Source: Spizellomyces punctatus DAOM BR117
Lineage: Eukaryota
DNA: 64,000 bases
Direction: 5' to 3' (one strand)
Assembly (NCBI GenBank): GCA_000182565.2
Contig: KQ257456.1
Shown here: piece by piece, positions 10,460-55,840 of the stretch
How the letters are laid out: each line of letters starts with the position of its first letter
Position numbering within the stretch: position 1 is the stretch's first letter
Program-made: the position numbers and the translations under genes
Notes under the pieces: generated by a model
The model's database searches: none
What the model was told of the DNA's origin: nothing
Seen by the model: only the letters and a program-made list of their open reading frames with translations

Positions 10460-10480
10460 AACCCTAACCCTAACCCTAAC
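10460..10480 (+). repeat. Interstitial telomeric repeat, (CCCTAA)3 plus flanks
   Basis: The sequence aaccctaaccctaaccctaac is read directly. Confidence 0.95.
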
Positions 10481-10519
10481 ACTCTAGTGACAGATATTTC
10501 CTCTGCGAGAGACGCAGAC

Positions 10520-11800: not shown

Positions 11801-13737
11801 GATGAAAAGAGATTAGAATGAAAATGTGTAATGCTGACTGAATGATAATGATGCTACACAACAACTGTGCCAATATATTGGTTACGTGCTTTATGCCTTG
11901 AAATCAACTGCTGCGCCTCGGAACAAAGAGGCTTTTTACAGCTCATTCACCCCTTTAGGTTTTGCATCCGATTCTCCTGCTCCATTCGTGCCCTTGTCTT
12001 AGTATCTAGTCAAAACAACGTTGCAGGAATAGGAACATGTATTGGAGCAAATAAATCACTTTTCAAAGACATCATCCATCATGCATTTGCCAACTTGTCT
12101 ATTCCTGGACGATTTCAAAAGGATTCAGAGTCAAGCCTCTTTACGGCAAAATACGGACGCAAAAAATTATTTCAATACGAGTTTCGCAATTTTGTAAATG
12201 TCCGCAAAACGCCAAAATCCCTCGTGCGTGCATGAGATTGCCCGTTCCAACGGATCAAAGGTCCGAAAACCAGTTTCTCGGTGCCATTGCCTTTTTCGTT
12301 CCATTTTTCAAAATGGTGCCAAACGAGACAGCACTGTGTTTACCTTTCCAGACGATTGCCCTCGTGCTTGACTTTTCCCTCTTTTCCACTTGATGGTCAG
12401 AATGCAATCATGTTGTCATACTTTCCATTGAATGACGGATTTGGTCGTAAGCGTTGCTGATTAAGACAAAGGGTAAACATTCACGACGAGTCAGCAGGGC
12501 AGAGGCGTTAACAATTTGGCCCCAACAAGAAAAAAAGAAAAGCTGATAGTGGGAGGCTTGGACAGTCGCGGGAGACGGAAATGTTAAATGGAGGCGGATT
12601 TGTTTCTTGAATAGCACGCAAAACGCAACGCTGGGCCCTGTTAAAAAGTTTCTCCTTGTTTGGTCTGGACTCGTTCTGTCCCCCGCAAATGTTTGTGGCC
12701 GTGTGCATTTCCACCTTCCAGGAGAGGGTCCAAGACGCGTTTCGGTACTAATCCGGAGACGCAAATTTGCGTTCGGCCACATTGGATCTCCACGACCCCC
12801 GGCTGTGTCTTTCCCAAAGTGACTATAAATTCCGTAATGTGGCTTGAATGTTGTGGTCGTCCGACAAACACCCTCAAGAATTTTATTCGCGTGCTTATCT
12901 CGATTTGCGAGCGTTTCGGAGCCATACGGAGGGGGAGGGGCGTCTTTCTTGGTCAGTTGCATACTTTCTCCCCACGCCCTAAAACTTGCGTAGTGTTTTG
13001 TTTGTTGTGTGTTCTGCCTCCCCCAGTGTGTGTGTAAAACTTCTGCCTGCAAACGCACACAAAGCAACGCACACGCACACACAGGCATTTCTTGTGGGTA
13101 AACAAGGAACCAAAAAAAAAAAACAAGGAACATCATTTCCCCCTCCGTCCTCCGTCCTTCCTTCCTTCCTAGCTCCTTGGCCCCTCCCCCCCGTCCAGCA
13201 ACAAACAAAAGACTCTCTCGTGCGTTTTTCTCGTCGACTCAAAAAAAAAGAGTTCATCATCGATATCCAGAGAGCAATCATTGTCTCTTTTTGATGGACA
13301 CGAGAGGGACGTGAACCCTTGGCTTTTGTTACCGGGATTTTCATACGCTGTCCCTTTTTTGCTTTTTCTTTCGAGTACCGTTCGAGGCTTTATTCCGGTG
13401 TTCGGCCTTCTTGCATTCATCCCCCAGACGAGCGAGTCGTGGTTTAAAAGGACGACACGCGCCCAAAGGTCCCTTTTCACTACGTCTACTTGCTCGCGTG
13501 TTTTATTTTTTTTTCTGTTGACGTTCGATTTATCTTCTGATACTCGTTTTCACACTGTGAGTTTCTCGTCGTTTTGTGGGTGTTGTTTTCAAGAGCGGCC
13601 CTGTCGTCGTTTGTTGGTCCTCGTTGCTGCATGCGTTTTGATTGTCGTCTCATCGACAATTGTCGCGTCTTTTTTTCGTCGCTTTGACAGATCAAGTCAA
13701 AGACCTGTCAATTCCCTGTTGTTCCAAAGGATCCGTC

Positions 13738-14970
13738 ATGAACGTCCACCAAACCCACATGGACCCAAACATGTTTGCCGCCACGCTGGGTAATGAGTTC
13801 TCTTACGAACAATGGCTTGGTAACGATCATCAAACCGCAACGTTTATTGCGAGCACGTCAATCGAGCAGCAGCAGCAGCAAGAGCACCAACAACAACAGC
13901 AACAACAGCAACAACAGCAAGTCGACTATTTCTCTCACAACCCAACGACGCCCATGTCAGCAAGAAATACCTGGAATCCTGTTATGCCAGCAGCCCTGTT
14001 GCCGCCTTCCCCTACGTCTTCCGCACAAGACGATGAATTGCGCACGCTGCTCGAGCCACTTGACCAGCAGTATTTGACAGCCAACTTCCCGGCGCCGTCT
14101 ATGGTGTCACCTGCCGTACGCTACATGACGCCGGCTGCCGAATTGCCTCCAGGCCCGTCAATGACAACGGCTTGCATGCCTCCCCAGCTGGACACTACAG
14201 CATTGACAGACAACTGGTTGCTGTTGCAGCCCTATCCACAGCCGTATCCATCCCCACCTCTACCGTTGGCGGCCGAATCCTTCTCACCGCCTCCCGCCGT
14301 TGCCTCCCTTCCACACCTATCTCGACCTGCAGTACCTTCATCTCCCAGGTCAAAAGCGCACTCGTCAAAATCCTTGGGGAAAATCGGCTCGGGTCCTTCC
14401 GGCTCTTCAGCATCCATCAAGGCCTTCCCGTGTGAAATATGCGGAAAAGTTTTCAATCGCTCCTACAACCAGCAGCAGCACATGCTCATTGTACATGCAC
14501 CTGTACGCACAAAGTCATTCATCTGTACCGAAGAAGGCTGCGATAAGTCTTGTAAGTGTTTGTTTAACTTGTACAGTCATATTGCCCTGGTGCTAACTTT
14601 TTAAACCAAAACAGACTATCGTGCAGCGGATTTACAGCGACACAAACGTGTCCACGGCATTGCCAAAACGTCCCAGGACACGTCAGCTGTAGGAGCCACT
14701 GCCGTTTCTCGCTTTACGTGCTCGACTTGTCCAAAGACCTTCCTACGGAATGATCAACTCCGCCGTCACGCAAAGCGGTGTCCAGGTTCATCGTGCGCCG
14801 GCTCAATGTCGCCAAACTTACAGATTGTCACATCCTTTTGCGATGAGACGCCTTCGATAATGTTCTCTCCTAACAACATGGATGTTGTGGGCCACCAAGC
14901 CCCTCTTGTTTTCATTGCCCCGCACCCGACAGAACTGTGCAGTCGCGGATGGTCTGATCGCCTGGATTAG
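13738..14970 (+). CDS. C2H2 zinc-finger transcription factor (three fingers, poly-Q, Pro-rich)
   Basis: FPCEICGKVFNRSYNQQQHMLIVH; FICTEEGCDKS|YYRAADLQRHKRVH across the intron at about 14552-14613; FTCSTCPKTFLRNDQLRRHAKRC; stop at 14968-14970. Confidence 0.9.
13866..13920 (+). repeat. CAG/CAA microsatellite encoding poly-Q
   Basis: cagcagcagcagcaa...caacaacaacagcaacaacagcaacaacagcaa. Confidence 0.85.
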
Positions 14971-15742
14971 GCACCTGGGTCGAGTAGTTTTTCATTTGGA
15001 ATACCACATTTATCTTTTTTTTTTTCTCTTCATACTTGTAAATACTATTCTTGAAGTAATGGAATGGGACATTTTTGAAAATCTGGAAGAGTTTGTAATA
15101 GGAAAAACAATTGAAGCATTCGTGGCTTGCACCTCCGGCAGCACCGGCCTGTATTATATAACCAAAGGCACATGTTGTAGACTTGTGACGTCAGCGCCCA
15201 GACACTTGGATTTCGTTGCGCGGACAGATCTCCCATCTTTCAAGATTGGCCATCACACTGAATGAACGCACAGATTGCTCTGTGGTAATCCTGTAAAACA
15301 ATGAGCGCCGAACGTCCAGACACTATAGAGCTAAAGCTCTTTCACAACAATTTCGCAAAGTACGCGTTTGTCAAAGGTTGTTTTGCAGAAACACTGTTTT
15401 TTTTCGCATTGCGCATTTTTGTCCTCATAACCATCTATGCACAACAGACTCTGACCTTAGCTACGACGGGATTATCAACGTATCTCTTCAGCGACACCTT
15501 TGCAACGAGTAGTCTGAGGAAATGGCTCATTCTTTATATTTAGGCTTTCGAAAATACTTTTACAGGCTTCGATCATAAACATTTTGGAATAGAGTTTTAT
15601 GATGGATCGCATTATGTAGAATTGAAGGGTGAGAACAAGAAGGTTTACCGTTACTTTTTAGTAACGGATGTATAACAGATGAAACAAATAGGCGACCAAA
15701 ACCATCTTCGGGTGTTGCGGGAGACGATCAAACGGAGCGAAA

Positions 15743-17525
15743 ATGGACGAAAGGGCATGCTTCGCTCGGTTGAGCATCAATTGGAGTTTTTGGGTATGGA
15801 AACGTCAAGCATCTCTACAATTGTGGAGGCTTCCGTTCGGTGAGCCTGGAACACTTGCTATGATGCTGGAAACCGATCTCAATGACCTCTGCCGTTTTGA
15901 TCCCGGTAGCTTGTACGAAAAACTGTCCAAAGTGCACAGAATGAGGCTAAAACTTGACCATCTAAAATCCATAATCATTGTCACAAAGGTGTGTGGTCGA
16001 ATCATGTTTTCTTGACGGCTGCTAAAATAGTACAAACGTGTCATTCAGCCACGAGAGCCCTCCCTTGTTCCATTAACAAAAGAAGTCGCCATATGGATAA
16101 TATGTCATTTCTGCGTCGATGTATATGTGGGCGAGCCATTCAAGGAGCGGACCGAGTTTGGGTATGACTCCCTCATCAAGGATGAGACCATTAAAAAGCG
16201 CCTCAAGTTTTGGACGGAAGACGGGGTTAAAGCGAATGCTGAGAATATAAGTCTGGCGGTCACACTTGGAGGCGATGGAACTGTATTGTACACCGGTAAT
16301 GTTATTGTCTGGGTACTGGAACGCATATTTCAGCAACCTCTAATAAGAGTGTTGCACCGTGTGCTGGTATTCAGCTAGCCTCTTTCAAGTAAGTCTTTCG
16401 TCGATCCTGTTTTAAGATGCCTGCAACCTAATGAAATATTGATTACAGAAAGCTGTCCCACCGGTCATGTCCTTCCATCTCGGCTCGCTGGGGTTTCTCA
16501 CAAATTTTCAAATCAACGAATATCGACAGTCTCTCAAAAGCGTGTTGAGTGGAGAAGGACATCATGTTAATTTACGACAGCGATTGAGCTGTGCTGTATA
16601 CCGGTGGAAACTTCCCGTCCCTCAGCCCAGTACCGTCACGCATTGTACGCGGCATGACGTGGTGCGGACAAATGGTGGATGTAAAGACTGTGAGGAATGG
16701 CCGACGGGGGATCCAGATTTTGGCACGCAGGTGTTGAATGAGTTGGTCCTTGATCGAGTAGGTTATCTGTTTGTTGATATTGCAGTTTGATATCGTTGCT
16801 AATGCTGTCCAGGGACCCAACCCAGGGCTTTTGATGCTCGAGTTGTATGTACATGATGAAAGTATCGTATCTTGGGCAAGCGTTGATCATCTTGCTGTTT
16901 TGCAGATACGTGGATAACATGTACCTCACCACAATACAAGCCGATGGTCTCGTTGTTGCGACTAGTACTGGTTCAACGGCGTATTCGGTAGGATTCACAA
17001 GACGCAATACTAAGAGCACAGCTAACATGATGCTAACATGATCTAATGGTTGACAACGAACTGCAGCTGAGTGCAGGTGGATCACTTGGTAAGTTGTATA
17101 TCGCGCACTTGGGTCTTAGGAACCACTTTACGCATTCAATTGAAAACAGTACACCCCGATAAAAGTGCAATTCTGATCACACCTATATGTGCACATACGT
17201 TGACGTGCCGTCCTATGATTCTTCCTGGGCGGATGAATTTGAGGATCTGCGTGTCACCAAATAGCCGTTCAACGGCATGGGTAGGAAGTTCACATCTTGC
17301 AGCTTTTGTGGAAATGTTGAGAAACCATAATTTAATCCTGTCCTTCAGGCCGGTTTCGACGCACGCGATCGAATGGAGCTAAATAAGGCCGATTCTGTAT
17401 GCGTAACGGCATCGCGATATCCGTTCTTGCAGATATGCCACGATGATCAGACAAAGGACTGGTGCCGTTCACTGATTTCTAGTCTACATTGGAATGAGCG
17501 GGAGCACCAAAAACCGTTGTTGTAG
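15743..17525 (+). CDS. NAD(H) kinase (multi-exon; start uncertain, may lie further upstream)
   Basis: TLGGDGTVL, FHLGSLGFL, VLNELVLDR, QADGLVVATSTGSTAYS, ITPICAHTLTCRP, LHWNEREHQKP. Confidence 0.92.
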
Positions 17526-17638
17526 AGTGGTGCGTTACCATATTGCCTGCCATGGACTTTTGTGTTTCCAGGTAGATCCATGAAGTGTTGGTAGCTCTAG
17601 CATTCTTTGCAAGATTTCTCTTTATATTAATAGATAGT

Positions 17639-19536
17639 TTACAATTTCAAATGCCGTAGTCTCCTCCTCTCAATCATGCGTAAAATCTGTTCTCCTGAAA
17701 GTGCAGCCGTAGGATCGTTTAGCTTGGCACCTGGTACATCACCTTCCTCAACCCTCGTTGATAAACTCTTTCGAGCGGTCCTGGTTGTGCTGGTCCTCTT
17801 TTTGCCACTCCCCTTTCTAGCTCCCTTTTTTTGGGCGCTCCCACTTCTACTCTTTTCTACCTGGTCCAGCATTTGCAAAAGGTCCTCTGGTGTAGTCACG
17901 GATCTTCGAGGGGAAAAGATCCGCACTGCTTGTCGTCCAAGAGGTACATCCTCGTCGGGGTCTACATAATCTGGAAGTGGTGAAGGACTGGCGGTACGTG
18001 GAAGGAGATGATGTGGATGCTCATTGCTTGGGGGAGCATTGCACGGTGTTGGAGGTCTGTGACGCAAGCGTCGTGTTCGGTCGATGGATTGAAGGAGGAG
18101 AACACGGATTTCGTGAACGTTTTTATAAGCGGGGCCAAAGTAGCGGCGGAGAATGTGTTGTGGTACGTTGCTGATGATAATGAAAGGCAGGAAGAATGAG
18201 CAAAAGCTGATCAAACACATATTCACAACAAAAAAGCGGAGCGTTACCCTTGCTCAACAAGATCGATCATGGAAAGATGGTCTGGTTCGGCTTCGTTATT
18301 TTCAATTACAAAGCGAAGGCGGCGAAGCGCAATCTAAAAGGTAAATGCAATTGACATCAACATCTCCTCAATCAATGTGTGCAAAAGTGGTTTTCCAATA
18401 CCCACTTGTTCAATCCTATATTGATCAATATTGCTCCGCACTGTCTGCATCTTTGTCAACGATGCTGGTAAATACGTCACAGGGAGCTTGTGTTCAGTTG
18501 CGAGCGGTAGACTGGACAGGGATACGCCAGACATCATGGGATCGTCGCTGGATGCGGTAGCCGAGGGAAGACTTTGGTTTGGCGAACGACGTGTGTGAGA
18601 GTTTGACTGACCACTACGACCGGAAAGTGGTCTTTTGGCGGACATTGGGCGAGATGGAGCTGGTGAAGCTTTCGTACTGCGGCATTTGTGAACGGTTTAT
18701 ATCAAAAATATGCCAAGGAGTACGGCCTCTTGTACAGTACCTTTTAGTTTCCGTCCCAGCATTTTCGGCATCCGTACTCTTTTTGATGAGTACAGCAGGG
18801 TTGTCTGGCACTTGCTCAAAGCGCAACAAGGATTTTGCGGAATCGTCCACTTGCACATCTGCCTTCCCTGATGGTGGCTCGTCTAATGAATGGTTCTCCT
18901 TTTGCTTTGATTTCTGGAATGTGCGTCAAGGTCAAACCAAGCGACAGATCGCCAAACCTAGCCTCCCAACTCGCCTGTTTCAATTCCTTCTTCCATCCCC
19001 CGTCGACCTTTTCAGTTAATCTTCCTCTCCCGCCTCCCACACCACTTCCCTCCACATCAATATCATCAGGGCCCCAGTTGAGTAGCTTTCGTGTTGGTAC
19101 CGGAGAGGTGGAGGAAGCTGGGACTGGTTGGTGTCGACCAGTGTCGTAGATGGTCGCTTGGATATGTCCTAATGGTACGGGGTCTGCATCATTGCCAAAA
19201 ACAAAAAAAAAAAGTCAGAAAAGTAGTTAGGTTATGACAGTTTGGACAAACGAATCAAGAGGAAGTGACCTGGAGGCTTAATATGACGTCTGGCTGCGCT
19301 TAACGGTTTCGGTACATGGGCTGAGGGAAGCTGGAAGGTGACTTTTCGCTCTGCTGTAAACAGATGGCGTGTAAATGCCTCGTCGCAGGACACCAGTCTT
19401 TTGTCTGTGTACACAAGCAAAGCACACCATTCTCCGCACGGATATCAACACCTCTTGTCAAATCAACCACCAATCGCTCCGGGCTCTCAGCCGCTGACCA
19501 TCTGCCATGCTGCCCATGAACCGCATCATCAAGCAT
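17639..19536 (-). CDS. Hypothetical multi-exon protein
   Basis: Chain of minus-strand ORFs linked by plausible GT-AG introns; no domain recognised. Confidence 0.55.
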
Positions 19537-21523
19537 GATAGTAGCGATCGTGAAAAGAAAAAGGCAAGGAGCTTTGGACGTGCCACCATATCAGAACATG
19601 CTGTTTCGGCTTGACATGTTTTTTTTGGGAACATTTGGAATGATCCTTGATTTTTTGATCCGGGTGAGGGTCATGTCTGAGCAAATCGTGTGTGGACTTG
19701 GACTGCTGATTGCCATGTACTCAAAGATACAGTACTATGTATCGCATTTTTTTAACGTCATTGAGATGATATAGCTGAGGCGAGTGGATCAGCGCTTTCC
19801 TCAGGACAAAAACAACATCGAGGAGCAAACCGCTCTCCCCACACCCCAGCCAGGCTGCTTCAAAATATTCCATGAAGAACCTTGCGTATCATACTAGGAA
19901 GAAGAAACCCATATGAGAATAGCGTAATTGGAAGGCATCAGCTGGCGAGGGACGATGAACAAGTGCAGGTGTATCTCAATCTGCTATGATGCCTCGCAGG
20001 CACTCGAGAATGCCTAAATATTGGCGGGCAGAGTGTTTGATGAGGATACGTAGGGGAGGGACAAGCAAAAACAGTGGCATAAAAGTGTACTGATCAAGTA
20101 TTGAAGGATTCAATTTCTCCTCGGCCAAACATCAAAGAAATGGGACACATTCCTTGTGACATGCAACACTTCAATAGCCGGGACTGCCTGTCCTCTCCCA
20201 ACGCGCAGCATTGGCTACCGCTGGTGATAAACTCCAAGTACAGCCTGAGACTAAAACAGCTATCATATCATGGAGGTCTCTTTTTCGGAAGATGAAGCCT
20301 TTTGATGGTATCTCCACTGACCAGCGTGACTATCCCAATTCCAACAAATCACTCCGCGACTGCGCGGCAGTCCCACCAAAGGAATATTTAAACCCACCAT
20401 CACATACAACCTCTTTTCCGCATTTCTATTCTCCCTACTTGTTCAAAGTAGGTCGAGATACCCACAGCCGCTGAGTGATGGTGATGATAGCAGGTAAGTT
20501 ATGGTAAAGGACGAACGATCGAGTACGTATTTATGTATTCTCCGTGTCCTCATGTCTGTAACCGTTATATCTGACAGCTGGCCTGTATTCTTTTGTTTAT
20601 ACTTTTTGAATGGAAGGATATTTGGGGTACTGGGTGAGGTTGTTTGGAGAGGTTTGGTTTTTTGAGATGCTGTTAGTAGTTGGAATATCATGGTGCGCTT
20701 TCAAACCTCCTGGTGTTGGAATATGACGCTGTTATTCTGTTTGAATCCATGATGCGCAAAATGGCAATGCCAATGCCATCAACTCTGGCATCCTCGCGCC
20801 CTAAGTCAAGTGGTGACGTTTATGTACCTAAACATTCAACTTTTGATTCTTCATTAAAATAGAGAGGAAAAGTGTGCATTGGCCAAGATAAATGTAAAGT
20901 ATTTCTGTCTGGGTGTTTGGCAAAAGCAGCATGTATTCTTAAGGTTATCGATACAATTCCAGATATGTATCCGGAAGAATTAAATATCTGACAAGGCCTA
21001 TTGTTGACTGGTGTTCGCATTACCAATATCGTCAACAGATGTTGCTGCTTCCCGCCGATGCATGGCATTACCTGCGGCAGACACAGGAACAGGTAACGAG
21101 GTCTGGCTGCTGTCTTTGGATTCGTCGTGTACGTGGGATGTCGTGGAGGCCTGATGTACCCGAGTGTATCGCTCAGCGTTACGCAGATGTGGAGACGGGG
21201 TGGATCCTGGTGCTGCGGGATGAACAAGGGGTTAGCGAGTAGCCAGAGGAATTCGCATGATGAAATTAGCACCTACTTATGAGATTCTTTTCGGACGACA
21301 CCCATTGGCGGACCGGCGCCTTGTCTTTTCCAAGTGAATTCAATGTTACGAAATAATATAAGAAAATCATCTTACCAGTGCCTCTACATGAAATGTACAA
21401 TGATATATCTCTCAAAATTTCAAGGACCTCCCTATCCGTAAAGTTTCCTTCGAATCGCTCCGCACGCGGGAGAATGTCGACACCCGCGCTTGCTGCCAGT
21501 CCTTTGTTCAAAACAGCGCTTTT

Positions 21524-22042
21524 TTAGACTTCATTAACCATAATCATGTGTATCGGAAACAAAAGAACAATACCTGAGTCCAGCTCAGGTGCGGAAACAG
21601 CCATCCCGCCCATGGCGCCCGTGACTTCCTCCAACCCTGTGTCAGAGCTACCGGTTGAAGTCGACAGATGTACCCGGACTTTAAGAACGGACGAGTCGTC
21701 TTTAGCATCATTTCGTACTATGAAAATGTTATTTGTCATTAGAATGATCGGGACAGATAGCACAATGCCAGCAAGTCCAAGCTTACGAATCTCCTCGACA
21801 TCCTCATTTGATGCAACCGTAATCACGTCTCCATCCGCATCACGATACTGCAGACAAAACGAATCTTCATACTGCGGTAGTTGGTATAGATTGAATATCT
21901 AAGAGGAACAACCGGTTACCTCACGCAACACGGATCGATAGTCATGTATACGCACCTTGCGTCGAATAGTCTGATATGTAACCTGTGATCGCTCGATACT
22001 AAACCGCCGGCAGTCATCTTTTAACCAAGCTTTTACAATCAT
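21524..22042 (-). CDS. PB1-domain protein (3' end uncertain; possible further exons to about 21060)
   Basis: MIVKAWLKDDCRRF (conserved PB1 Lys and RRF) spliced to FCLQYRDADGDVITVASNEDVEE (OPCA motif). Confidence 0.7.
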
Positions 22043-23070
22043 GATCTGATGCTGTGTTGCTGGTTTGGCGCACGCATTATGATGTCCAATGATTGACGAT
22101 GAACGACATCATGATAAATGGCACGACCGGGGCCAGTGCTCATAGAGTATCTGATATTACATTAACGCAAAGGTATTTTACATTGCCATATCTGCAAAGC
22201 TTTTCGGATAAATTACTTAAATTGGCGGAATGCAGCATTTAGTTAACGTTGATTCTATTTTCAAGCCACAAATATTCATATTGCCTCAATGCTCGGACAA
22301 GTAAACCTGGAAATGTTTTCAATTAGCAAGGCACTCGTCCCAAACCCTGCAGTGTGTCCTCCACACATTCCAGTAACTCAAGTACTACACGAGGAAGTAT
22401 CAGGCGGTGTTCTTGCCGGACAACCAGTGTTCAAATATCGTTTAAAAAGGGACTTGGGGAGTTGCACTCACTTGACAGGACTGAGCGTGATTCGAAAGAT
22501 ACGCTTCTAACCTTCCAAACGGTATACCAGTACCTAACTGTACCCCAACGGTAAACCGTAGCACTGAAAGTAAGAGTACAAACGTAAGGGACATTGAGAG
22601 TCTGCTTTTTGAAATATGGACACAAGAAGGCTTGTTTTCACGACGCTGGGAGCGGTGAATGGACACTTTCATCAGTCAATCAGTAGAAATATGAAGTGCA
22701 CTAATAAAGAGATACGCATATCCCTCATTGTCACCTCTCTTACCTTCTGCTGGGCTTCGTTTTGTAAAAATCTGACGTTACAACTAACCGCCCATCCAGT
22801 TTCCTGCAGCCATCTCTCAACCATTTCTGCATGTCCGATCCTCCGCTCGAGATTGGAGAGTGATTAAAATGATGTACTGGGTAAAGACGACACCTGTGTG
22901 TTTAAGATCTGCTGGAAACACTGGACGTAAAGAACATGCAAGCACTGAGGACATTTGTCGATGATTGTAAAGTCCGACACGAAGCACAGCCACTTGTAAT
23001 TTAGCCTAATCAGTATGAAATGAAGTTGTTTTGACATCCAAGCTCTTCTGCTCTTGGGCAGTGCTACAGG

Positions 23071-25902
23071 ATGGAGCGGGGTAACATTGGTAGCATTCCC
23101 TCGGTATTTCAAAGCTCAATTCTCCGAGCGGACTCTCGAGACCATACGCCGTTATGGGATGGCCCCGGTTCTGGGCAGCGTAGCAGGTCTCGAGGGCGCT
23201 TCGTCCCCGACCGAAACGTTATTCCGACCACGCCCTGTCCTAGATGCGGAAAAATGGGGCACTGGGCTCGGTATTGTCCAAATCAGTCAATTGGCGAATC
23301 CCCACGAAGACCACCTTCCTGGCATACTGGGCGAGAGGTTGGAAGATTGGTACTGCAACACCCCGGAAGAAGCGCACTAGACTCATGCTTACGTTTAGGC
23401 TACCGGAAAGAGGCCTTTTTCTTCAAGAGATTCAAATCTATTTGGGACTAACCGCCATGACTTTGGCCACCAGCCAGTGAATTATGACGTCAAAAACAAG
23501 AGGCCGAGACTGGATTCACCGTCTTCCAGTCCAGAGGTGATACCAGTCAAGGAAGAGGAGGAAGATCAGCCAGTCGCCATTGCCGAGCCAGTCATCCGCG
23601 AAGGTTCGCGCAGAAGGTCACCATCGCCAAATCCCCATGGTGAGAACCTTCGTGAGGAGAGACCGCCTCCAGATCCATTTGAAAGCCTTGTTTCACAACA
23701 CCAAGATCTGCAGTTGGTGGGTTCTATGGTAGCCCGTCGTGGTGCGGATGAAATGCCACTTCAAAGATCAGAAAACGCAAATAAAGCATCTTCATTAAGC
23801 TCCAGTTCCGGAGAGGAATCATCAGATTCAGAGGCTGAGGGACTAAGTCTTGCTCAACTAGCCATTCAGATGGAAAGGCAGCGGCATCGCTTTATTATAT
23901 TCACCGACAAAGCTCGCCGGGCATCTCGGAGGATTGCAAGGCTCACAAGACTTTTAGAACGAGCGGCGGCAAAATCGGCGTCTGAAGTATCACCGCGGTC
24001 TACAATAAATGGCAGATCTCCACGATCCAAACATAATCATTCGTCGCAAATGCAGGACACGCCAGCGGCGGTACAGGCCGGGCCGTCCGAAGGCCATACT
24101 GAACTCAGTTCGCCTCAAGGGAGCTCTCGACGTCAGACAAAATCTAGCACTGAAAATGGCCGTGACGAGTCCTCCAGTTGGCAGCCTGAGACGAAACGCA
24201 CGATATGCACGTTGTACAATTTCAACCGCAGAAAGGTCGGAGAGTTTACGCGAAAGCCTCGATCACTATTATTACCACCAGAGAACCCAGGTCCAGTTCA
24301 AGATACTGTCATAGCATCTACTCTCGACGGGTATGCTACAATTGGTGCTACTCTTTGGTAATGGTATCTGGTACATTTTACTAATTTGCTCCTTCTAGCC
24401 ATCTGCATTTATTTGACCAACGTGGCAAGAGGTATCATGTCTGTTTAAAGTGACCGTAGGCGTTTGTCGCTAATGGGTCTTTTGCGCCATAGTCAATTCC
24501 AGTCAGTTTTACATGAGGAACTGAGGAATTACTGGTCCGAAGATATTGTAAGTGAATCAATTCCTATTTCTACCGTCTTCAGTACTGAATAAGTAAATCG
24601 GGATTCAGGCCTGGGTATCCCCAAACGTCCTTGCTGTTGCTGCTGCCGACAAGTCTGCACAAAACTCCACCAAAGGCGATAAGGCGTCCATTGTTCCCCA
24701 TCAATTGGCACTCCTTTATGATTGTTCAGTAAAAAGGGTGCGCTGACTGTCCCCAACCCTCCGTCCCCGATATTTCTATTGACAAATGCATGACAGGGGA
24801 AATTCACCTACAAAGTACAGCATCTAAGAAACAACATGCCCCACGATAGAGGCATTGCCCTTATATACCCGTTCGCCAATCTGGGGAACAAAACCCGTTG
24901 GTTAACTGGTGGAATGGACAAGAAGATCGTAAGTCTTACGGTGTGTTCTGAGTCGTTAGCCACGTCGTTTAAGGATGTCTCGTTCACTTTCCAGTTCTTG
25001 TGGAGTTTTGATGGGTCCTTTTGGGGGAATCAGGATGACTATACCAAGGTCAATCATATTAGCATTCACACGGAGCATACCTCGGCAGTCCAGGGAATAT
25101 ATTACAATCCGCACAGCGAGGTACTATATTCTGGTGGTCTGGACTCGCGACTGGTTGGATGGTCTCTGGCTGAAGGGAGAAATACGCTACCATTCGAACG
25201 TATGGAGGGAAAAGTAAGTAGAGTACCTGCAACTTTCAGAGCGCAAACATTTTTCAACATCCCATCATGTAGATCAGGGACATCAGCGGCATTCCAACAC
25301 ATCCACAGCTGTTGCTTCTCGGGTAAGTTGGAAAAAGTCCTGTCCTGTACTGCCTGTCATGTCAACGATTCGCTCATTTTGGTGCTGTATCGTCCAGATT
25401 CGCGGAAAGCAAGAACCAGATGCGCTTATGGGATGAACGGGAGAGAAAGGTTGTTCTGACTTTTGGTCTGAATGAAGGCGCGAGCGAGGATTCGAGTAGG
25501 TCAGATAGCACGAAATATAGACATCATTCTGTGCATCCCAACGGATATCTGGTTTCTCTCGGCCACATCCGGGATGGCACTGTCGCCATTTGGGACAGTA
25601 AGTTTAAAAGGACTTTCCATTTTCTCCGCAAACAGCTCATGATTTTCAACTCTCCAGTGAGACACACCGGCGTACAACAGGGACCTGCACAATCATTGAG
25701 CGGCCATAGTATGTCTGCATGTGCAACAATTTCTCGCGAGGGACGTTACTAATCCTGCATTGCAATAGCCAAACGAGTCATAGTGGCAAAATTCAACGAA
25801 TGGCGGGGGAAAAGCTCAATCATATCACTGGGCCTGGACAATAGCTTGGTGTTTACGGATTATCAGCTTCGAACGGAGGAGATGCCAAAGCAGTTACGAT
25901 GA
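23071..25902 (+). CDS. CCHC zinc-knuckle plus WD40-repeat protein (multi-exon)
   Basis: CPRCGKMGHWARYC; WD motifs WLTGGMDKKI, HTSAVQGI...LYSGGLDSRLVGW, DGTVAIWD, ISLGLDNSL. Confidence 0.75.
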
Positions 25903-26528
25903 CATCGAGTAGAACGAAGCCGGTGTGACCTGTGAATCCGAATTTCATCTCTGATACGTTACTGAACGTGGGCGGACGCTTTCATGCACCATTGATCCTC
26001 GATCGGCATTATCATCAAATATTTAGCCTGAAGCAAGCGGTTGAGTAGTAATCATTCAGTCAAATCACAAGGCCACTGGACGTTGTGTGCAAAGGCAAGC
26101 AATAGCTAGCGTTGCCATGTTCATCCTCCTGTGTACAGTTTAGGATATTGCATCCTTGCAAATAGAGAGCTTAGATATCCGTAGCGTTAGGGTTAGACTA
26201 TCGTCCAAATGCATTGTAGAAGGCGACATGATCGGGCCCATTACATAACCTGTCACATGACCTTACAATCTCGTTGCGCGAAGGACAATGCAGCAGGACT
26301 GTGACATACGGTGTGGGAAAATAGAAATGTCAGTGCCACGAAGCATTGCAGCCAGTTGAATTAACCACATTTATTGTGAACCTCACGAAGATAAACAAAA
26401 AGACGGGTCCAATACCTGCGAAATGAACGGATTGCAATTACTATCCCTTTGCAGCCATCTATGAGAGGAATATTCTGCAGATGCCACCTGCATGACGCTC
26501 CATGACTCAATCTATCCGCTCTTTTTTC

Positions 26529-26986
26529 TATATAAACCCCCGCTGTTCTTCTTCCCTCTTGTTTCTTTATCCCTCGACTCGCAAGCATCTGTGCAACTCT
26601 TCTCATCACGACTGTCGGTCGAATCATGAGAATACAGATGTGGTGGTGCCAAGGACCTCGCCCACCCGACTACAACAACATAACCCCTTGCAAACGCTGC
26701 TACTACTATATTGCTACGATTGCAGGTATGCATTATCTTTGTATTTTCCCACGCCCGTATTCCGAGTCTAATTCTGGTTTAATTAGTATCTGAACATCCA
26801 AGAATTTCGGAATCAAGGGCTTAGTAGGATTTCTCTCGTGTGGTGGGCTTAGTTACCCGTTTAGAACAACCGTAATGTATTGCATGTGTCATTGGGCCTA
26901 GTGGTACTTAGTTGTAAGGAGGGAATTACTTGGCTTTTCCGGGCTGGTTGTCGCCAGTCTATTCCCTGGTGTATTGTGTTGTGACA
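26529..26986 (+). ncRNA. Structured element, copy A (putative spliced ncRNA, micro-ORF gene or non-autonomous element)
   Basis: Colinear block homology with 54968-55496; TATA at 26529; covarying hairpins; GT-AG intron at 26726-26786. Confidence 0.55.
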
Positions 26987-27013
26987 TTTGTTATTGCCAA
27001 TACACTACACACG

Positions 27014-28146
27014 ATGCTGCCCATTCTCGTACTTCCCTTGTTGATAATAGCGCTTTCCACGGGTCCTCTCGTATACCTTCTCTTCCTATTTTCCCGTCCG
27101 ACCTCGGCATTTCGCAGTTCATTTATTCCTCTACCTCTCCGACCGCCTTTAAAGCAATTCAATCGACTCTCTGTCCTTCTTGTCACAGCCCACCCAGATG
27201 ACGAGTGCATGTTTTTCGGACCAACGATAGTGCAATTGATTGAGCATGGTGCTGAGGTTTCCGTATTATGTTTGTCTTCAGGTGTGAGAGTTGACGCACC
27301 ATGTGTGAAACTACGGCAGTACACGCTAACAAGCTGTGCTGCGTTGTAGGGAACGCGGATGGGATAGGCGCTGTACGAAAAAAGGAACTTCTGGAGAGTT
27401 GCAAAAAGTTGGGAATACATTCATCCAACGTGACTTGCTTAGACCACCCGTGAGTTCTGAGTCGTAGGAAGGCGACATGGATACAGACCATGCAGACTGC
27501 AACCGTGCTGAACATCAATTGCCGGATACATAGACAGTTGCAAGATGACCCGAAAGCTTGGTGGAAGGCATCGGTGATAGCAGAGGTCCTCGATGCACAC
27601 ATTGGAGAGCGTAAAGTAGATGTGGTGCGTGTTGCGAGGATGACATGATCTTAGGCAGCGAAAGAATTTATGGTTTTTCCAACTCCATAGGCCATCACCT
27701 TTGATAATGGAGGGATTTCAGGTCATCCAAATCATAGAGCTCTATTTGAAGGCATTCGGTGTGTTCCTGTCGTTTGCTTTCGTGGCATCGATCACATTTA
27801 CTTATATACATAACCTACCAATATCATTAGGTACTTTCTCAATCTGCCTGCGTCGTCTTCTACATCTCCGCGTCGTCAAATACCGCATTGCTATGCCCTC
27901 AAGACTGTTTCTTTGCTTCGGAAATACTTGTTCATAGGGGATCTCGGTTTGACGATTGTACCACATTTGCTGTTTCGCGCGCGGGATGGCAAGAAGAGCC
28001 ACTCGGCAGTGTTTGTAGCGACTCCTCAGCAGTTTTTTCAAGCAAGAACAGCGATGACGCGACATAAAAGCCAATTAGTCTGGTTCAGATACCTGTACAT
28101 TTTATTCTCTAGATACATGATTGTAAATGAACTGGACAGAATATAG
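27014..28146 (+). CDS. GPI12: N-acetylglucosaminyl-phosphatidylinositol de-N-acetylase (PIG-L)
   Basis: N-terminal TM segment; LLVTAHPDDECMFFGPTI, LCLSSGNADGIG, ITFDNGGISGHPNH, AMTRHKSQLVWFRYLYILFSRYMIVNEL. Confidence 0.95.
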
Positions 28147-34938: not shown

Positions 34939-35886
34939 CTACAAGAGTGTCTCCCCCAGCGCTGTTCGCGTCAAAGAGCACCCGATCTGAATGGTTTGAA
35001 GGACGTACGCCTGATCACCCAAAAGAGGATTGACTTCCATAATATCCACCGCAACCAGGTTTCCTGTTTCGTATACCGCCTCGCAGATGAAATGTCCTTC
35101 TCTAAACGTCAGTCCACCGCGGACAGGCGTTCCCGTTGCAGGTGCAACGCTTGGGTCCAGCGCGTCGACATCAAATGACAGGTGAACGGGCTTGTCGCGA
35201 CCAAGGTAGTCTAATGCCATTTCAACGACTTTGCCGATGCCGTATTTGTCAACCTCGTGCATGCTGAACGCTTTGATGTTGTTATCCTTTAATATTTTCT
35301 TTTCTGGTACATCAACATCTCGAAGCCCAATATATACAATTCTGTTTGTTGGCAGACAGGGTGACAGCCATTCAAATGACGGGATATTTCGTGCGCCGGG
35401 TAGCCCCATTAGGAAGGAGACTGGACAACCATGGAGGTTACCAGTTTCGGTCGTTTCAGGAGTGTTGATGTCCGCGTGTGCATCGACCCAAATGACACCA
35501 ACATCTGGGTATACGGCAGCACTTCCACTAATAGTTCCCATCGCCAGGGAATGATCGCCGCCCAGCGTCAGAGCAAGATGACCTTTTGCAACGAGCGATT
35601 TTACAGAGTCTGACACGGATTTGGTGACCGCGGAGACATATCGTGCATTTTTCAGCTTCCCTATATCTTGATCGGATGGTGGACGGAGGTGCTCGTATGT
35701 AGGAAACTTTTCATCGATATCAACATTCCAACCAAGGGAAGACAGTTGAGACGGGAGCCCAAACTCCACGAGACGCGCAGGACCTTGTTCAACTCCTCCG
35801 CGTGGTTGTCCACCCGAGAATGCTGCTCCTACTATACCGACCGTGTAGGGGGCTTTCAAAAACTTGTGGTGGGTCATGTCCGCCAT
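34939..35886 (-). CDS. CAR1: Arginase (intronless)
   Basis: GGDHS, WVDAHADINTP, GNLHGCP, SFDVDALDP, GTPVRGGLT, EVNP. Confidence 0.97.
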   Translation of the reverse strand: MADMTHHKFLKAPYTVGIVGAAFSGGQPRGGVEQGPARLVEFGLPSQLSSLGWNVDIDEKFPTYEHLRPPSDQDIGKLKNARYVSAVTKSVSDSVKSLVAKGHLALTLGGDHSLAMGTISGSAAVYPDVGVIWVDAHADINTPETTETGNLHGCPVSFLMGLPGARNIPSFEWLSPCLPTNRIVYIGLRDVDVPEKKILKDNNIKAFSMHEVDKYGIGKVVEMALDYLGRDKPVHLSFDVDALDPSVAPATGTPVRGGLTFREGHFICEAVYETGNLVAVDIMEVNPLLGDQAYVLQTIQIGCSLTRTALGETLL

Positions 35887-36099
35887 ATTCTCTATTGCGT
35901 GTGAGATATTTTTCGTAAGATGATGTTGGTCCAGATGCTGTTTGTGAAGGGTATGGAAGGCCCGACTTTGGAGGTCCTTTTATCTGCACTGGAGCGTTAC
36001 GTAAGCTATATCCCGTCATTCCAAATTGAGCCAGTTCCCGTGACGGGCGCAGCCAAAGATGAGCTCTTTGCAGGCTGGACGTGTTTGTAGCATCGGGAA

Positions 36100-54691: not shown

Positions 54692-54967
54692 CTTTGACCT
54701 TTCGACATGCACTTGTCAAAGATGGTTCCCAAAATGGATGCCTGCAAGCGGGAATTGGTTGACATGGAACGAACGGTAAGGTGGAGGACACGGTTGAAAA
54801 GGGCAAGAGCATAACGAGGTTATTGAAAATGGCACTAAGACCCACTATTATCCGGATAATCCGGTTAATCATATCGCATAATCAGCACCCCCTCTATTGC
54901 TCAAAGCGGTGAGGCATGCTAATATAATGTTTTTTTTTAAACTGCGGTGAGGCGCATGCCAAAGGTC

Positions 54968-55496
54968 TATAAAAGGGGACCTTCTGTCTCTTCCCTCTTT
55001 CCTCTTTACCCATCCTTGACTCTCAAAGCATCTGCGCAAATGCTCATCATGACTCAGTCCAAATGAGAATGCAGATGTGGTGGTGGCGAGGACCTCATCC
55101 ACCCGACAGCAACAGCGATCAGAGCCAGCAGCAACCAATTGGATCCATTAACAAAACTGCTATTATGCTGCCACATTTGTTGAGCTTGGTTGGTATGTAC
55201 TGATGGCATTTTGTTACTCTGTCATCGGGTCATCTTCTGACATGCAGTTTTCTAGTCTCCAAGACTTCATTACTGAAGATCCTCCAGCTTGCAAGTCTCC
55301 TCAATGTTGCGAAGACTCTGGCTTCAATGCCATCAAGAGTTCTGGATCAAGGCCTAGTAGGGACCGTGTGTGGTGGTGGGCAATTATCTGGTTAGAACAA
55401 CCGTTCGTATTGCATGTGTAATTGTCTATTAGTAGTTAGTTAGCTTTTCCGAACCGGTTGTCGCCGGTTTATTCCCTGGTGTAGTAGCTAGTGCCA
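54968..55496 (+). ncRNA. Structured element, copy B (paralogue of 26529-26986)
   Basis: Same ordered conserved blocks as copy A; TATA at 54968; covarying stems; GT-AG intron at 55193-55247 or 55193-55255. Confidence 0.55.
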
Positions 55497-55840
55497 GTTT
55501 CTGTCACCTCAACACTAACGAGGTTGCCGGTCACGCGGTCCGTGCAGCAAGTGGGACGATATTACAGATATGAAATTATTGAAATTACATGGCTCGCCCG
55601 TATCCACCATAAAAGCTTCTTTACAATGATTGTCTCGTTTCCCTATGCGATTTGTTGTTCGCCATTTTTCAACAAAGACCCAGATTCAAACCCCTTTACG
55701 TACCCAACGGCCTTACGAACCACCTTAAATCTCCAGCCTGGTCCTCCTTGGTCAAGCCGCATTAACCACGCCCTCGCTGACTTACTGCTGCGAGTTACCG
55801 GTGGATGTCACCTTAACACCAAACCCACGCACCTTTTCTA

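What the first reader, a model, noticed from the sequence alone, without database searches (positions are those of the whole stretch)
26529..26986. Unannotated two-copy element with compensatory base changes (copy A): candidate new structured RNA family
Seen in the sequence: this region and 54968-55496 share ordered blocks, namely TATA + pyrimidine tract, gcatctg, atgagaatRcagatgtggtggtg..aggacctc..ccacccgac, tcaagg..tagtagg, gtggtgggc, ttagaacaaccgt, gtattgcatgtgt, and gcttttccg..ggttgtcgcc..tattccctggtgta. The spacers between blocks are indel-rich. Substitutions keep base pairing. Stem 1 is gcatctgT/Acagatgt in A (26585-26592/26634-26641) and gcatctgC/Gcagatgt in B. The 3' hairpin is ggctgg-ttgtcg-ccagtc in A (26942-26959) and aaccgg-ttgtcg-ccggtt in B, with an identical loop. 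Stem 2 (ggtggtg/ccacc) has U-G in A and U-A in B. Recognisable homology starts at the TATA box, as expected for a transcription unit. Inference: a Pol II, spliced, structured ncRNA or structured leader, or a non-autonomous mobile element whose RNA structure is selected. I do not recognise it as any known snRNA, snoRNA, SRP, RNase P/MRP RNA or riboswitch.
Basis: partly seen in the sequence, partly recalled or inferred. Interest (0 to 1): 0.85.

Follow-up and report, generated by a model that had tools for sequence, protein, structure and literature searches.

The report
Fanzor guide-RNA "ghost" transposon copies
The two look-alike stretches are copies of a known small transposon of the soil chytrid Spizellomyces punctatus that has lost its Fanzor nuclease gene but still carries the Fanzor guide RNA, so the "new structured RNA" is an already described one, although its promoter, intron and very high expression appear not to have been described.

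Summary
Copies A and B share ordered blocks (blastn E 1e-21 and 1e-18) and base-pair-preserving substitutions. It is not a new RNA family. The window comes from Spizellomyces punctatus DAOM BR117. Both copies are about 700-bp elements with about 30-nt terminal inverted repeats, TA duplications and CA just upstream, which together form the SpuFz1 TAM CATA. Their last 74 nt fold into stem-loop 1, the 6-nt linker AUUCCC and stem 2. That stretch matches 15 of the 18 scaffold nucleotides that Saito et al. 2023 name for the SpuFz1 ωRNA, and it ends exactly at the repeat boundary. This is the published "ghost Spu-1" element (134 loci, no Fanzor gene).

Reads add anatomy that I did not find in print. 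The internal region behaves as a TATA-type Pol II unit: sense coverage starts about 45 nt after the TATA box, a 61-nt GT..AG intron is spliced, and A-runs begin about 9 nt beyond the right end. Reads come from many paralogs (0.34% of one RNA run). Four paralogs are annotated as hypothetical proteins, but with inconsistent reading frames. Copy A sits 6 nt upstream of the PIG-L start codon.

The parts
26305..26308 (+). Copy A: CATA. This is the conserved CA (26305-06) plus the left TA target-site duplication (26307-08), and it equals the SpuFz1 TAM.
   Evidence: Sequence. TAM CATA and 'CA upstream of 5' IR' are from PMC10432273. TA TSD is from PMC3627910.
26309..26336 (+). Copy A: left terminal inverted repeat.
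   Evidence: Four-end alignment A6. Local alignment with the reverse complement of the right end gives a 16/22 core. An X2 contig diverges before 26311.
26529..26536 (+). Copy A: TATA box (TATATAAA), the inferred Pol II promoter.
   Evidence: Sequence. Plus-strand depth is 2.3 in bin 26529-26575 and 1295 in bin 26576-26622.
26585..26641 (+).
   Evidence: RNAfold -20.4 kcal/mol, z -2.85. The same fold appears in B, with one compensatory pair.
26626..26725 (+). Copy A: exon-1 part of a short ORF (MRIQMWWCQGPRPPD...). After splicing it stops at TAG 26821-26823 (45 aa).
   Evidence: splice. The N-terminal 17-28 codons are shared with B and 4 annotated paralogs. Translation has not been shown.
26726..26786 (+). 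Copy A: 61-nt GT..AG intron (a minor acceptor gives a 77-nt intron).
   Evidence: 123 reads and 3 reads span the two joints (table 5).
26934..27007 (+). Copy A: ωRNA scaffold. The scaffold includes the right inverted repeat (about 26978-27005) and the right TA (27006-07).
   Evidence: Fold -27.4 kcal/mol, z -5.33, 0 of 200 shuffles as stable. 15 of 18 nucleotides named for the SpuFz1 ωRNA match. Contigs of 3 runs and 8036 reads diverge right behind 27007.
27008..27022 (+). Copy A: predicted 15-nt guide (the flank after the right end). It covers the PIG-L start codon at 27014-27016.
   Evidence: Inferred from the published 14-15-nt extension beyond the scaffold. Sequence. PIG-L Pfam hit.
54810..54813 (+). 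Copy B: CATA (CA plus the left TA).
54814..54839 (+). Copy B: left terminal inverted repeat.
   Evidence: Inverted pair 54816-54837 / 55489-55510, 22 nt, 82%. 18/22. Alignment A6.
54968..54975 (+). Copy B: TATA box (TATAAAAG).
   Evidence: No reads were laid on copy B.
55028..55078 (+). Copy B: 5' hairpin with the same architecture as in A.
   Evidence: RNAfold -16.7 kcal/mol, z -1.82. Consensus fold.
55063..55192 (+). Copy B: exon-1 short ORF. The GT donor is at 55193. The acceptor was not determined (candidates 55254/55 and 55262/63).
55444..55517 (+). Copy B: ωRNA scaffold, including the right inverted repeat and the right TA (55516-17).
   Evidence: z -2.97, 0 of 200 shuffles. 15 of 18 named nucleotides match. 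Covariance model R1 scores 98.6 bits.
55518..55532 (+). Copy B: predicted guide (the flank).
   Evidence: Inferred as for A. Sequence.

Best explanation
Both copies are non-autonomous 'ghost Spu-1' elements of Spizellomyces punctatus. These are about 700-bp transposons with terminal inverted repeats, inserted at TA behind CA. They lack the Fanzor (SpuFz1) nuclease gene but keep its guide RNA (ωRNA) at the right end.

Shown here:
- the ends, the TA duplications and the CATA;
- a 74-nt right-end scaffold with the published architecture and the published named nucleotides;
- many paralogs;
- sense-strand RNA that starts after an internal TATA box, is spliced, and carries A-runs shortly after the right end.

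Inferred:
- Each ghost is its own Pol II gene. Its spliced, probably polyadenylated transcript ends with the ωRNA scaffold plus a few nucleotides of flanking DNA, which form the guide.
- Fanzor protein made by full-length Spu-1 copies binds and trims this RNA.
- The complex cuts CATA+guide, that is, the element-free version of the same site. By analogy with TnpB, this promotes retention or copying of the element.
- The base-pair-preserving changes in the 3' hairpin reflect selection for ωRNA stem-loop 1, which contacts the nuclease.

Not explained: the function of the 5' hairpin and the short ORF. My best guess is transcript stability or processing, not a conserved protein.
For: Organism: a 1477-aa ORF of the window is 98% identical to an S. 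punctatus DAOM BR117 protein.

Published description of the family (PMC10432273; passages, section 10 read whole):
- 134 ghost loci without a Fanzor ORF;
- 30-nt inverted repeats with CA upstream of the 5' repeat;
- a 75-nt ωRNA scaffold spanning the 3' repeat, made of two stems and a 6-nt linker A29-C34;
- a guide 14-15 nt beyond the scaffold, and TAM CATA.
SPu-1 has 33-bp TIRs and putative TA TSDs (PMC3627910, passages).

Found here:
- CATA lies directly at the left end of A and of B, and also in a third paralog contig.
- TA is present at both ends of both copies.
- All four ends align with each other. TIR cores are 16/22 in A and 18/22 in B.
- The scaffold folds as stem-loop, then AUUCCC, then stem. 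z is -5.33 for A and -2.97 for B, and 0 of 200 shuffles is as stable in each.
- 15 of 18 named nucleotides match in both copies, allowing one 1-nt shift.
- The repeat boundary is sharp at 27007. Contigs from X1, X2 and X3 and 8036 X22 reads run on into at least four different sequences.
- 86,864 of 88,503 laid reads fit only partly, and variant letters reach 10-94% share, so the reads come from many paralogs.
- No Fanzor-sized ORF lies inside the element, and the ORF products show no similarity to any PDB chain.
- Transcription: plus-strand depth rises from 2.3 to 1295 at about 26576 and reaches 10,000-23,000 over 26811-26998. It falls to 0.6 or less in the first bins after 27046 and stays below 2 to the end of the laid stretch. 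123 reads are spliced. The loose-end consensus behind 27007 is 9 nt followed by an A-run.
Against: - The inverted-repeat and ωRNA sequences of Fanzor and ghost loci are given only in figures and supplements, which I could not see. Identity with the catalogued ghost loci is therefore inferred from features, not from an alignment.
- The paper gives about 550 nt between the repeats. Here it is about 640-650 nt.
- The scaffold is 74 nt, not 75, and needs a 1-nt shift to match. 3 of 18 named nucleotides differ (G22, C40, G70, all in stems).
- In a control scan of the whole window, one unrelated site (61833, inside a beta-lactamase-like ORF) also reached 15/18 (about 0.13 expected by my estimate).
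- The published 'stem 2 with a 3-nt bulge' of ghost ωRNAs is not obvious in my folds.
- The A-run after the right end could be genomic in a dominant paralog instead of a poly(A) tail.
- Reads are 60 nt, so no single molecule links the TATA-proximal start to the ωRNA.
- No reads were laid on copy B.
- TIRs are imperfect (73-82% in the cores).
Confidence: 0.85

Rival explanations
1. An ordinary (non-mobile) lineage-specific gene family for a structured Pol II non-coding RNA, or a dual-function RNA of the ENOD40 type with a short conserved ORF plus a structured non-coding part. It would have been duplicated by segmental duplication and be unrelated to Fanzor.
For: TATA box, splicing, very high expression and A-runs at the 3' end. 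Conserved hairpins with pair-preserving changes. No Rfam hit. Between A and B, internal homology is strongest from the TATA box to the 3' end.
Against: Inverted repeats at both ends, TA duplications and CATA at the left end in 3 of 3 copies seen. A sharp boundary at 27007 with several different flanks. The right-end 74 nt match the published ωRNA architecture and 15 of 18 named nucleotides.
Confidence: 0.06
2. A small protein-coding gene family, as in the RefSeq annotation of four paralogs (hypothetical proteins SPPG_09019, SPPG_09412, SPPG_09407, SPPG_08830). The conserved blocks would be coding sequence or UTRs of a 45-105-aa protein.
For: An ATG-initiated ORF sits at the same place in 6 of 6 members. 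The first 17-28 codons are shared. The indels in this part keep the ATG frame: a 30-nt length difference between A and B, and one codion-sized (one-codon) difference in SPPG_09019. HMMER E-values are 5e-17 to 3e-12 among paralogs.
Against: tblastn places the annotated paralog proteins on copy B's exon 2 in all three frames. Already in the second half of exon 1 they fall in a different frame from B's own ORF. ORF lengths are 45, 80, about 90-96, 105, 144 and 258 aa, and two models start at the TATA box itself. All 7 differences between A and B in the first 52 nt of the ORF change the amino acid. There is no Pfam family. The Atlas model of SPPG_08830 has pLDDT 0.32. The AUG is paired in the 5' hairpin. 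A translated N-terminal micropeptide is not excluded.
Confidence: 0.06
3. A non-autonomous Helitron. The 3' hairpin would be the Helitron terminator palindrome, followed 10 nt later by CTRR (CTGG at 26966-26969), with a 5' TC at the TCTATA start of the A/B homology.
For: A hairpin plus CTGG at the canonical distance, followed by T. Both copies begin their internal homology with TCTATA.
Against: Homology and the repeat boundary continue 38 nt beyond CTGG, to 27007. The base before TC is T in A and G in B, not A. B-type paralogs share at least 10 nt upstream of TC. Terminal inverted repeats and TA duplications are present, and canonical Helitrons lack both.
Confidence: 0.01
4. A structured 5' leader, with a uORF and a leader intron, of the downstream genes (PIG-L for A).
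For: The element ends 6 nt before the PIG-L ATG. A PIG-L cDNA contig reaches back to 26982. One annotated paralog model is fused to a downstream mannosyltransferase gene.
Against: Plus-strand depth drops from about 15,700 (bin 26952-26998) to 0.6 (bin 27046-27092). The downstream genes at three loci are unrelated to each other. The unit has transposon ends.
Confidence: 0.02

Closest known systems
Ghost Spu-1 elements and their ghost ωRNAs in Spizellomyces punctatus DAOM BR117 (Saito et al. 2023, Nature 620:660, PMC10432273)
   Same: Same organism and strain. Short element without a Fanzor ORF, about 30-nt terminal inverted repeats, and CA upstream of the left repeat. The right-end scaffold of about 75 nt has two stems and a 6-nt linker, with the flank serving as guide. 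Many copies.
   Different: The distance between the repeats is about 640-650 nt here, against 'around 550 nt' in the paper. The text I read does not mention an internal TATA promoter, an intron, a 5' hairpin, a short ORF, polyadenylation or the expression level. I could not align against the published sequences because they are in figures and supplements.
Canonical SpuFz1 ωRNA (75-nt scaffold plus 15-nt guide; cryo-EM structure in the same paper)
   Same: U5 C6 C7, the loop U16-G20, the linker A29..C32..C34, U35, G37, A72 and A75 all match. The scaffold ends at the transposon end.
   Different: Stem nucleotides G22, C40 and G70 differ. The scaffold is one nucleotide shorter between G20 and A29. 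Here it lies behind a spliced non-coding unit, not behind the Fanzor ORF.
SPu-1, the autonomous-looking Fanzor1 element (Bao and Jurka 2013, Mob DNA 4:12, PMC3627910)
   Same: Terminal inverted repeats of about 30 nt and TA target-site duplications in the same genome.
   Different: SPu-1 is about 2,100 bp and encodes the 633-aa Fanzor1 protein. A and B are about 700 bp and encode none.
Bacterial IS200/IS605 TnpB ωRNA and non-autonomous derivatives (recalled knowledge, not from a call)
   Same: The guide RNA overlaps the right end, the guide is the flank, and the TAM sits next to the left end. The logic is that of cutting the empty site.
   Different: This is a eukaryotic host, and the precursor is apparently made by Pol II, spliced and A-tailed. 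The element has TIRs and a TA TSD, not the hairpin ends of IS200/IS605.

Membership tests
Ghost Spu-1 element (Saito et al. 2023) | Lies in the genome of Spizellomyces punctatus DAOM BR117 | tested here: met
   A 1477-aa ORF of the window is 98% identical to an NCBI protein of that strain. GC is 47.3% against the published 47.6%.
Ghost Spu-1 element (Saito et al. 2023) | About 30-nt inverted repeats at both ends | tested here: met
   The four ends align with each other. Cores are 16/22 in A and 18/22 in B. B's pair was found independently.
Ghost Spu-1 element (Saito et al. 2023) | Inverted repeats homologous to those of Fanzor loci (differing at 7 positions) | not testable with these tools
   The repeat logos and alignments are in Extended Data Fig. 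3 and the supplements, which are not held.
Ghost Spu-1 element (Saito et al. 2023) | Conserved CA directly upstream of the 5' inverted repeat | tested here: met
   A 26305-06, B 54810-11. A third paralog contig reads ...CACATAAGT before 26311.
Ghost Spu-1 element (Saito et al. 2023) | No Fanzor ORF between the repeats | tested here: met
   The elements are 701 and 706 bp. The longest internal ORFs are 89 aa or shorter in A and 94 aa or shorter in B. The ORF products have no PDB match.
Ghost Spu-1 element (Saito et al. 2023) | Conserved internal region of around 550 nt | tested here: inconclusive
   About 640-650 nt lie between the repeats. Between A and B, conservation covers only the stretch from the TATA box to the right end (about 480-550 nt).
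Ghost Spu-1 element (Saito et al. 2023) | 75-nt ωRNA scaffold spanning the 3' repeat: two stems plus a 6-nt linker, similar to the Fanzor-locus ωRNA | tested here: met
   The fold is SL1, then AUUCCC, then stem 2; z is -5.33 and -2.97. 15 of 18 named nucleotides match with one 1-nt shift. One chance site in the window does equally well.
Ghost Spu-1 element (Saito et al. 2023) | Many copies (134 loci) | tested here: inconclusive
   Many paralogs are evident: 86,864 of 88,503 reads fit only partly, 41-43 short contigs from each DNA-like run lie on the stretch, and at least 4 different right flanks appear. Four annotated paralogs exist. No count is possible without the genome.
Ghost Spu-1 element (Saito et al. 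2023) | RNA is bound and used by SpuFz1 | not testable with these tools
   Needs pull-down or cleavage assays.
SPu-1 family (Bao and Jurka 2013) | TA target-site duplication | tested here: met
   A 26307-08 and 27006-07; B 54812-13 and 55516-17.
Any Rfam 15 family | Covariance-model match | tested here: not met
   0 hits at gathering score on the whole window. 0 hits at E<=10 on either copy.
Canonical Helitron | 5' TC and 3' CTRR termini, a hairpin 10-12 nt before the end, insertion between A and T, no TIR and no TSD | tested here: not met
   Hairpin plus CTGG are present, but the repeat continues 38 nt further. The flanking bases are wrong. TIRs and TA duplications are present.
Solo LTR | TG...CA ends, a 4-6-bp TSD, relation to a full-length retrotransposon | tested here: not met
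   The ends are inverted repeats flanked by TA. The unit contains a spliced intron.
Protein-coding gene (RefSeq hypothetical proteins SPPG_09019/09412/09407/08830) | One reading frame conserved among paralogs | tested here: not met
   Paralog proteins map to all three frames of B's exon 2, and to a different frame in the second half of exon 1. Only the first 17-28 codons are shared in frame.

The most novel reading that the evidence does not exclude
Ghost Spu-1 elements are self-expressing guide-RNA genes. Each carries a strong TATA-type Pol II promoter, a 5' hairpin, a spliced intron and its own 3'-end signal. Cleavage and polyadenylation would occur about 9-15 nt beyond the transposon end, so the length of the Fanzor guide would be set by mRNA 3'-end processing. 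Together the copies form one of the most abundant polyadenylated RNA populations of the cell, a large arsenal of guides for Fanzor acting in trans. They repeatedly land just upstream of host start codons: 6 nt before the ATG of PIG-L, and in front of a mannosyltransferase gene in a paralog. There they may take over or interfere with host gene expression.
Probability: 0.45. Interest if true: 0.6.

Novelty: already known. Interest (0 to 1): 0.35.

Why it matters
The finding was put forward as a possible new structured RNA family. It is the ωRNA-bearing right end, plus the internal region, of a transposon family that has been described for this very strain. Its RNA has even been seen in a cryo-EM structure. 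The headline claim therefore falls.

Three things remain useful:

1. The ωRNA of Fanzor is absent from Rfam, so scans will keep rediscovering it.
2. Read evidence suggests that ghost elements are autonomous, very highly expressed, spliced Pol II units whose transcripts end just beyond the right end. I did not find this in the text of the Fanzor papers I read, nor in three literature searches. It bears on how eukaryotic ωRNAs are made and how their guide length is set.
3. At least four paralogs are annotated in RefSeq as hypothetical proteins with mutually inconsistent frames. One is fused to a neighbouring glycosylation gene. These are probably mis-annotations.

Tried and rejected
- The whole genome was not available, so there is no copy count, no genome-wide alignment and no R-scape-type test.
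- Earlier findings of this scan: nothing by sequence or by place.
- Rfam: no hit at any threshold.
- Metagenome pattern scan with the hairpin flanks: 21 loci, all chance matches in bacterial-looking contigs, with no flank similarity to A or B.
- Word-indexed protein search with the two short ORFs found nothing. The exhaustive HMMER search found the four annotated paralogs and one weak hit (P0006, E 6e-4), which I take to be unrelated.
- Pfam on 7 ORF products: only two sub-threshold hits (NinE 14.4 bits, CCHC_ZFPM2 14 bits), ignored.
- ESM Atlas on SPPG_08830: best feature score 0.89, TM 0.43 or lower, no lead.
- PDB sequence search with two paralog proteins found no Fanzor or other credible hit. 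The internal region is therefore not a recognisable deletion derivative of the Fanzor coding sequence at the protein level.
- My first inverted-repeat scan, read too quickly, led me to reject the ghost hypothesis. Contig loose ends and the four-end alignment reversed that.
- A mistyped spacing in a window pattern search gave only chance-level hits (18 found, 15 expected) and missed A and B. It was replaced by covariance model R1, which finds only A and B.
- Thermodynamics of the middle domain 26836-26912: z +1.0 in A and -2.0 in B, so no consistent support for a structure there.
- Readings considered and rejected: Helitron, solo LTR, histone-type stem-loop, SECIS, pheromone precursor and metallothionein. 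They were rejected on sequence features.
- Locus-tag search in the literature: 0 papers.
Full report
**1. The observation**

A sensitive blastn of each copy against the 64-kb window finds only the other copy, in two pieces: E 1.5e-21 at 78% over 132 columns, and E 1.5e-18 at 67% over 209 columns. All other hits have E of 0.6 or more. The intron-like middle does not align.

RNAalifold on the two 5' parts gives a 9-bp outer helix with one U-A to C-G exchange. The observation therefore stands.

**2. Transcription**

One call of read laying on 26200-27600 was allowed. In the raw-read RNA run X22, 88,503 of 26,394,413 records lie on the stretch (0.34%), nearly all on the plus strand.

Plus-strand depth by bin:

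| Bin | Depth |
|---|---|
| 26529-26575 | 2.3 |
| 26576-26622 | 1,295 |
| bins within 26811-26998 | 10,500-23,400 |
| 26999-27045 | 3,444 |
| 27046-27280 (PIG-L first exon) | 0-1.3 |
| 27281-27600 | 1.7 or less |

- 123 reads skip 26726-26786 (GT..AG) and 3 reads use an acceptor 16 nt further on.
- 8,036 reads run on behind 27007 into a consensus of 9 nt followed by an A-run.
- X1 behaves as cDNA, because its PIG-L contig lacks two GT..AG introns. It shows the same profile, with depth up to 62,000.

The unit is therefore a strongly expressed, spliced, sense-strand transcript that begins about 45 nt after the TATA box at 26529-26536. It is not the leader of PIG-L.

**3. Many paralogs**

- 86,864 of the 88,503 reads fit only partly.
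- 24 positions carry other letters, nearly all at shares of 10-94% in at least one run (for example T>G at 26860 in 16,674 of 17,760 reads).
- The DNA-like runs X2 and X3 put 41 and 43 short contigs on 1.4 kb.
- Behind 27007 the contigs of X1, X2 and X3 and the reads of X22 continue into at least four different sequences, none of them A's own flank. Before 26311 an X2 contig continues into a different sequence that ends in CATA plus 3 nt.

The repeated unit of the A type is therefore about 26309-27007, larger than the transcribed part, and has a sharp right boundary.

**4. Organism and annotated paralogs**

A 1477-aa ORF of the window is 98% identical to a protein of Spizellomyces punctatus DAOM BR117. 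A profile of the two short ORFs, searched with HMMER against 1.84 billion representatives, finds three proteins at E of 1e-10 or less and one weak repeat protein.

With one further cluster member, these are four RefSeq 'hypothetical proteins' of that strain on three other scaffolds: SPPG_09019, SPPG_09412, SPPG_09407 and SPPG_08830. They share MR.[QLP]MWW[CW][QR]GP[RH]PPD.N at the N-terminus.

tblastn places their remaining parts on copy B in all three frames. Even the second half of exon 1 is read in another frame than B's own ORF. Two of the models start at the TATA box itself, and one runs on into a downstream gene that one source names a dolichyl-P-Man mannosyltransferase. There is no Pfam family, and the Atlas model has pLDDT 0.32. 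All 7 differences between A and B in the first 52 nt of the ORF change the amino acid. Exon 2 is thus conserved as nucleotides, not as protein. A translated N-terminal micropeptide cannot be excluded.

**5. Identification**

A full-text search for the organism together with non-coding RNA listed Saito et al. 2023 (PMC10432273). Of that paper I read passages and section 10 in full. It reports the following for this strain:

- 42 Fanzor loci and 134 'ghost Spu-1' loci. The ghost loci lack the Fanzor ORF and have a conserved region of around 550 nt between 30-nt inverted repeats, with a conserved CA upstream of the 5' repeat.
- A 75-nt region over the 3' repeat that resembles the Fanzor ωRNA, with RNAs extending 14-15 nt beyond it.
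- TAM 5'-CATA.
- An ωRNA scaffold of two stems and a 6-nt linker (A29-C34), with named nucleotides U5, C6, C7, U16, G17, U18, C19, G20, G22, C32, C34, U35, G37, C40, G70, A72 and A75. The guide starts at U76.

Bao and Jurka 2013 (PMC3627910, passages) give 33-bp TIRs and putative TA duplications for SPu-1.

**6. Tests of that identification**

- *Left end.* CATA lies at 26305-26308 and 54810-54813, directly at the left boundaries, and also in the third paralog contig.
- *TSD.* TA is present at both ends of both copies.
- *TIRs.* The four ends align with each other. The cores match 16/22 in A and 18/22 in B. B's pair had already been listed, where I first overlooked its meaning.
- *Fold.* The last 74 nt fold in A as stem-loop 1 (26941-26960), linker AUUCCC (26961-26966) and stem 2 (26967-27007): -27.4 kcal/mol, z -5.33, with 0 of 200 shuffles as stable. 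B gives z -2.97, and its basal stem 2 (UGGUGU/ACACUA) can form as in A.
- *Named nucleotides.* 8 of 9 in the 5' part and 7 of 9 in the 3' part match in both copies, if the scaffold is one nucleotide shorter between G20 and A29. The three mismatches (G22, C40, G70) lie in stems.
- *Control.* Scanning every offset of the window on both strands with the same rule gives one other site with 15/18 (61833). It lies inside an ORF with beta-lactamase-family matches and lacks the hairpin. All other sites score 13 or less. By my estimate about 0.13 such chance sites are expected.
- *Scaffold end.* A75 falls on 27007, which is the repeat boundary defined independently by the reads.
- *Other copies.* A covariance model of the scaffold finds only A (100.3 bits) and B (98.6 bits) in the window.
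- *Fanzor ORF.* No Fanzor-like ORF lies inside the elements, and the ORF products have no PDB match.

I conclude, with confidence of about 0.85, that A (26307-27007) and B (54812-55517) are ghost Spu-1 elements. The third hairpin variant in the reads, and the different G22 of the canonical ωRNA, fit selection for pairing in a stem whose loop (U16-G20) contacts the nuclease.

**7. Mechanism**

Shown: the element ends, the scaffold architecture, the transcription and the splicing.

Inferred, from the paper and from recalled knowledge of the TnpB precedent:
- The transcript's 3' end carries the scaffold plus the flank as guide (A: the 15 nt from 27008; B: from 55518).
- Fanzor supplied in trans binds this RNA.
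- The complex recognises CATA followed by the flank, which is the element-free site, because CA plus one TA re-forms the TAM.

Not explained: the role of the 5' hairpin (z -2.85 and -1.82), the short ORF and the intron.

**8. What may be new**

The sections and passages I read do not mention a promoter, intron, polyadenylation or expression level for ghost loci. Three searches found no other paper on this: Fanzor+Spizellomyces+ghost, Fanzor+Spu-1, and Fanzor+biogenesis+polyadenyl. The supplements and figures, which I could not see, may bear on it.

The A-run could be templated in a dominant paralog, and 60-nt reads cannot link the start to the end. This reading is therefore a hypothesis, to which I give a probability of about 0.45.

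**9. Limits**

No genome was held, so there is no copy count and no proper covariation statistics. No reads were laid on B. No alignment to the published ghost sequences was possible. The spacing between the repeats (about 640-650 nt) is larger than the published 'around 550 nt'.

Noticed in passing
window 27006-27016 and 26982-27283: Ghost copy A is inserted at a TA 6 nt upstream of the start codon of a PIG-L (GlcNAc-PI de-N-acetylase) gene (Pfam E 8.8e-11). The predicted guide covers that ATG. A spliced PIG-L cDNA contig reaches back to 26982, inside the transposon's right end. PIG-L mRNA therefore carries transposon sequence in its 5' UTR, and may depend on read-through or on initiation inside the element.
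   Followed up: partly
protein P0003 (SPPG_09019), not in the window: This RefSeq model starts at a ghost element's TATA box and runs through the ωRNA region into a downstream gene that one source names a dolichyl-P-Man mannosyltransferase. It is probably a fused mis-annotation, and a second case of a ghost sitting just upstream of a glycosylation-pathway gene.
   Followed up: partly
window 54812-54821 and 55516-55525: In copy B the 10 nt TAACGAGGTT occur both at the very left end (TA plus the first 8 nt of the element) and at the right junction (TA plus the first 8 nt of the flank). Copy A has only the TA. A longer duplication, an insertion next to an older copy's end, or repair-mediated copying would each explain it. 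None was tested.
   Followed up: no
window 26435-26575, minus strand: Reads on the minus strand (depth 14-115) lie upstream of and across the TATA box. They come mostly from paralogs (C>A at 26512 in 143 of 170 reads). This suggests divergent transcription from the ghost promoter towards the left end.
   Followed up: no
window 26829-26916: Several 'opposite strands' joints (5-14 reads each) cluster here in the RNA run. They are probably snap-back artefacts of cDNA synthesis on a very abundant RNA. Folding gives no consistent structure there (z +1.0 in A, -2.0 in B).
   Followed up: partly
window 61833-61910 (ORF 61087-61944, plus strand): A stretch inside a serine beta-lactamase / D-peptidase-like ORF (PDB hits to E 1.5e-15) matches 15 of the 18 named ωRNA positions. 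It begins with a motif resembling the scaffold's start but has no hairpin. I judge it a chance match.
   Followed up: yes
window 34942-35979, minus strand: An arginase-family ORF (Pfam E 1.3e-74). This is an ordinary housekeeping gene, noted only as context.
   Followed up: no
protein P0006 (592 aa), not in the window: A protein made of about 7 tandem repeats containing N[RH]Q[LM]WWYHQPILPD gave a weak hit (E 6e-4) to the short-ORF profile. Source and relation are unknown, and it is probably unrelated.
   Followed up: no
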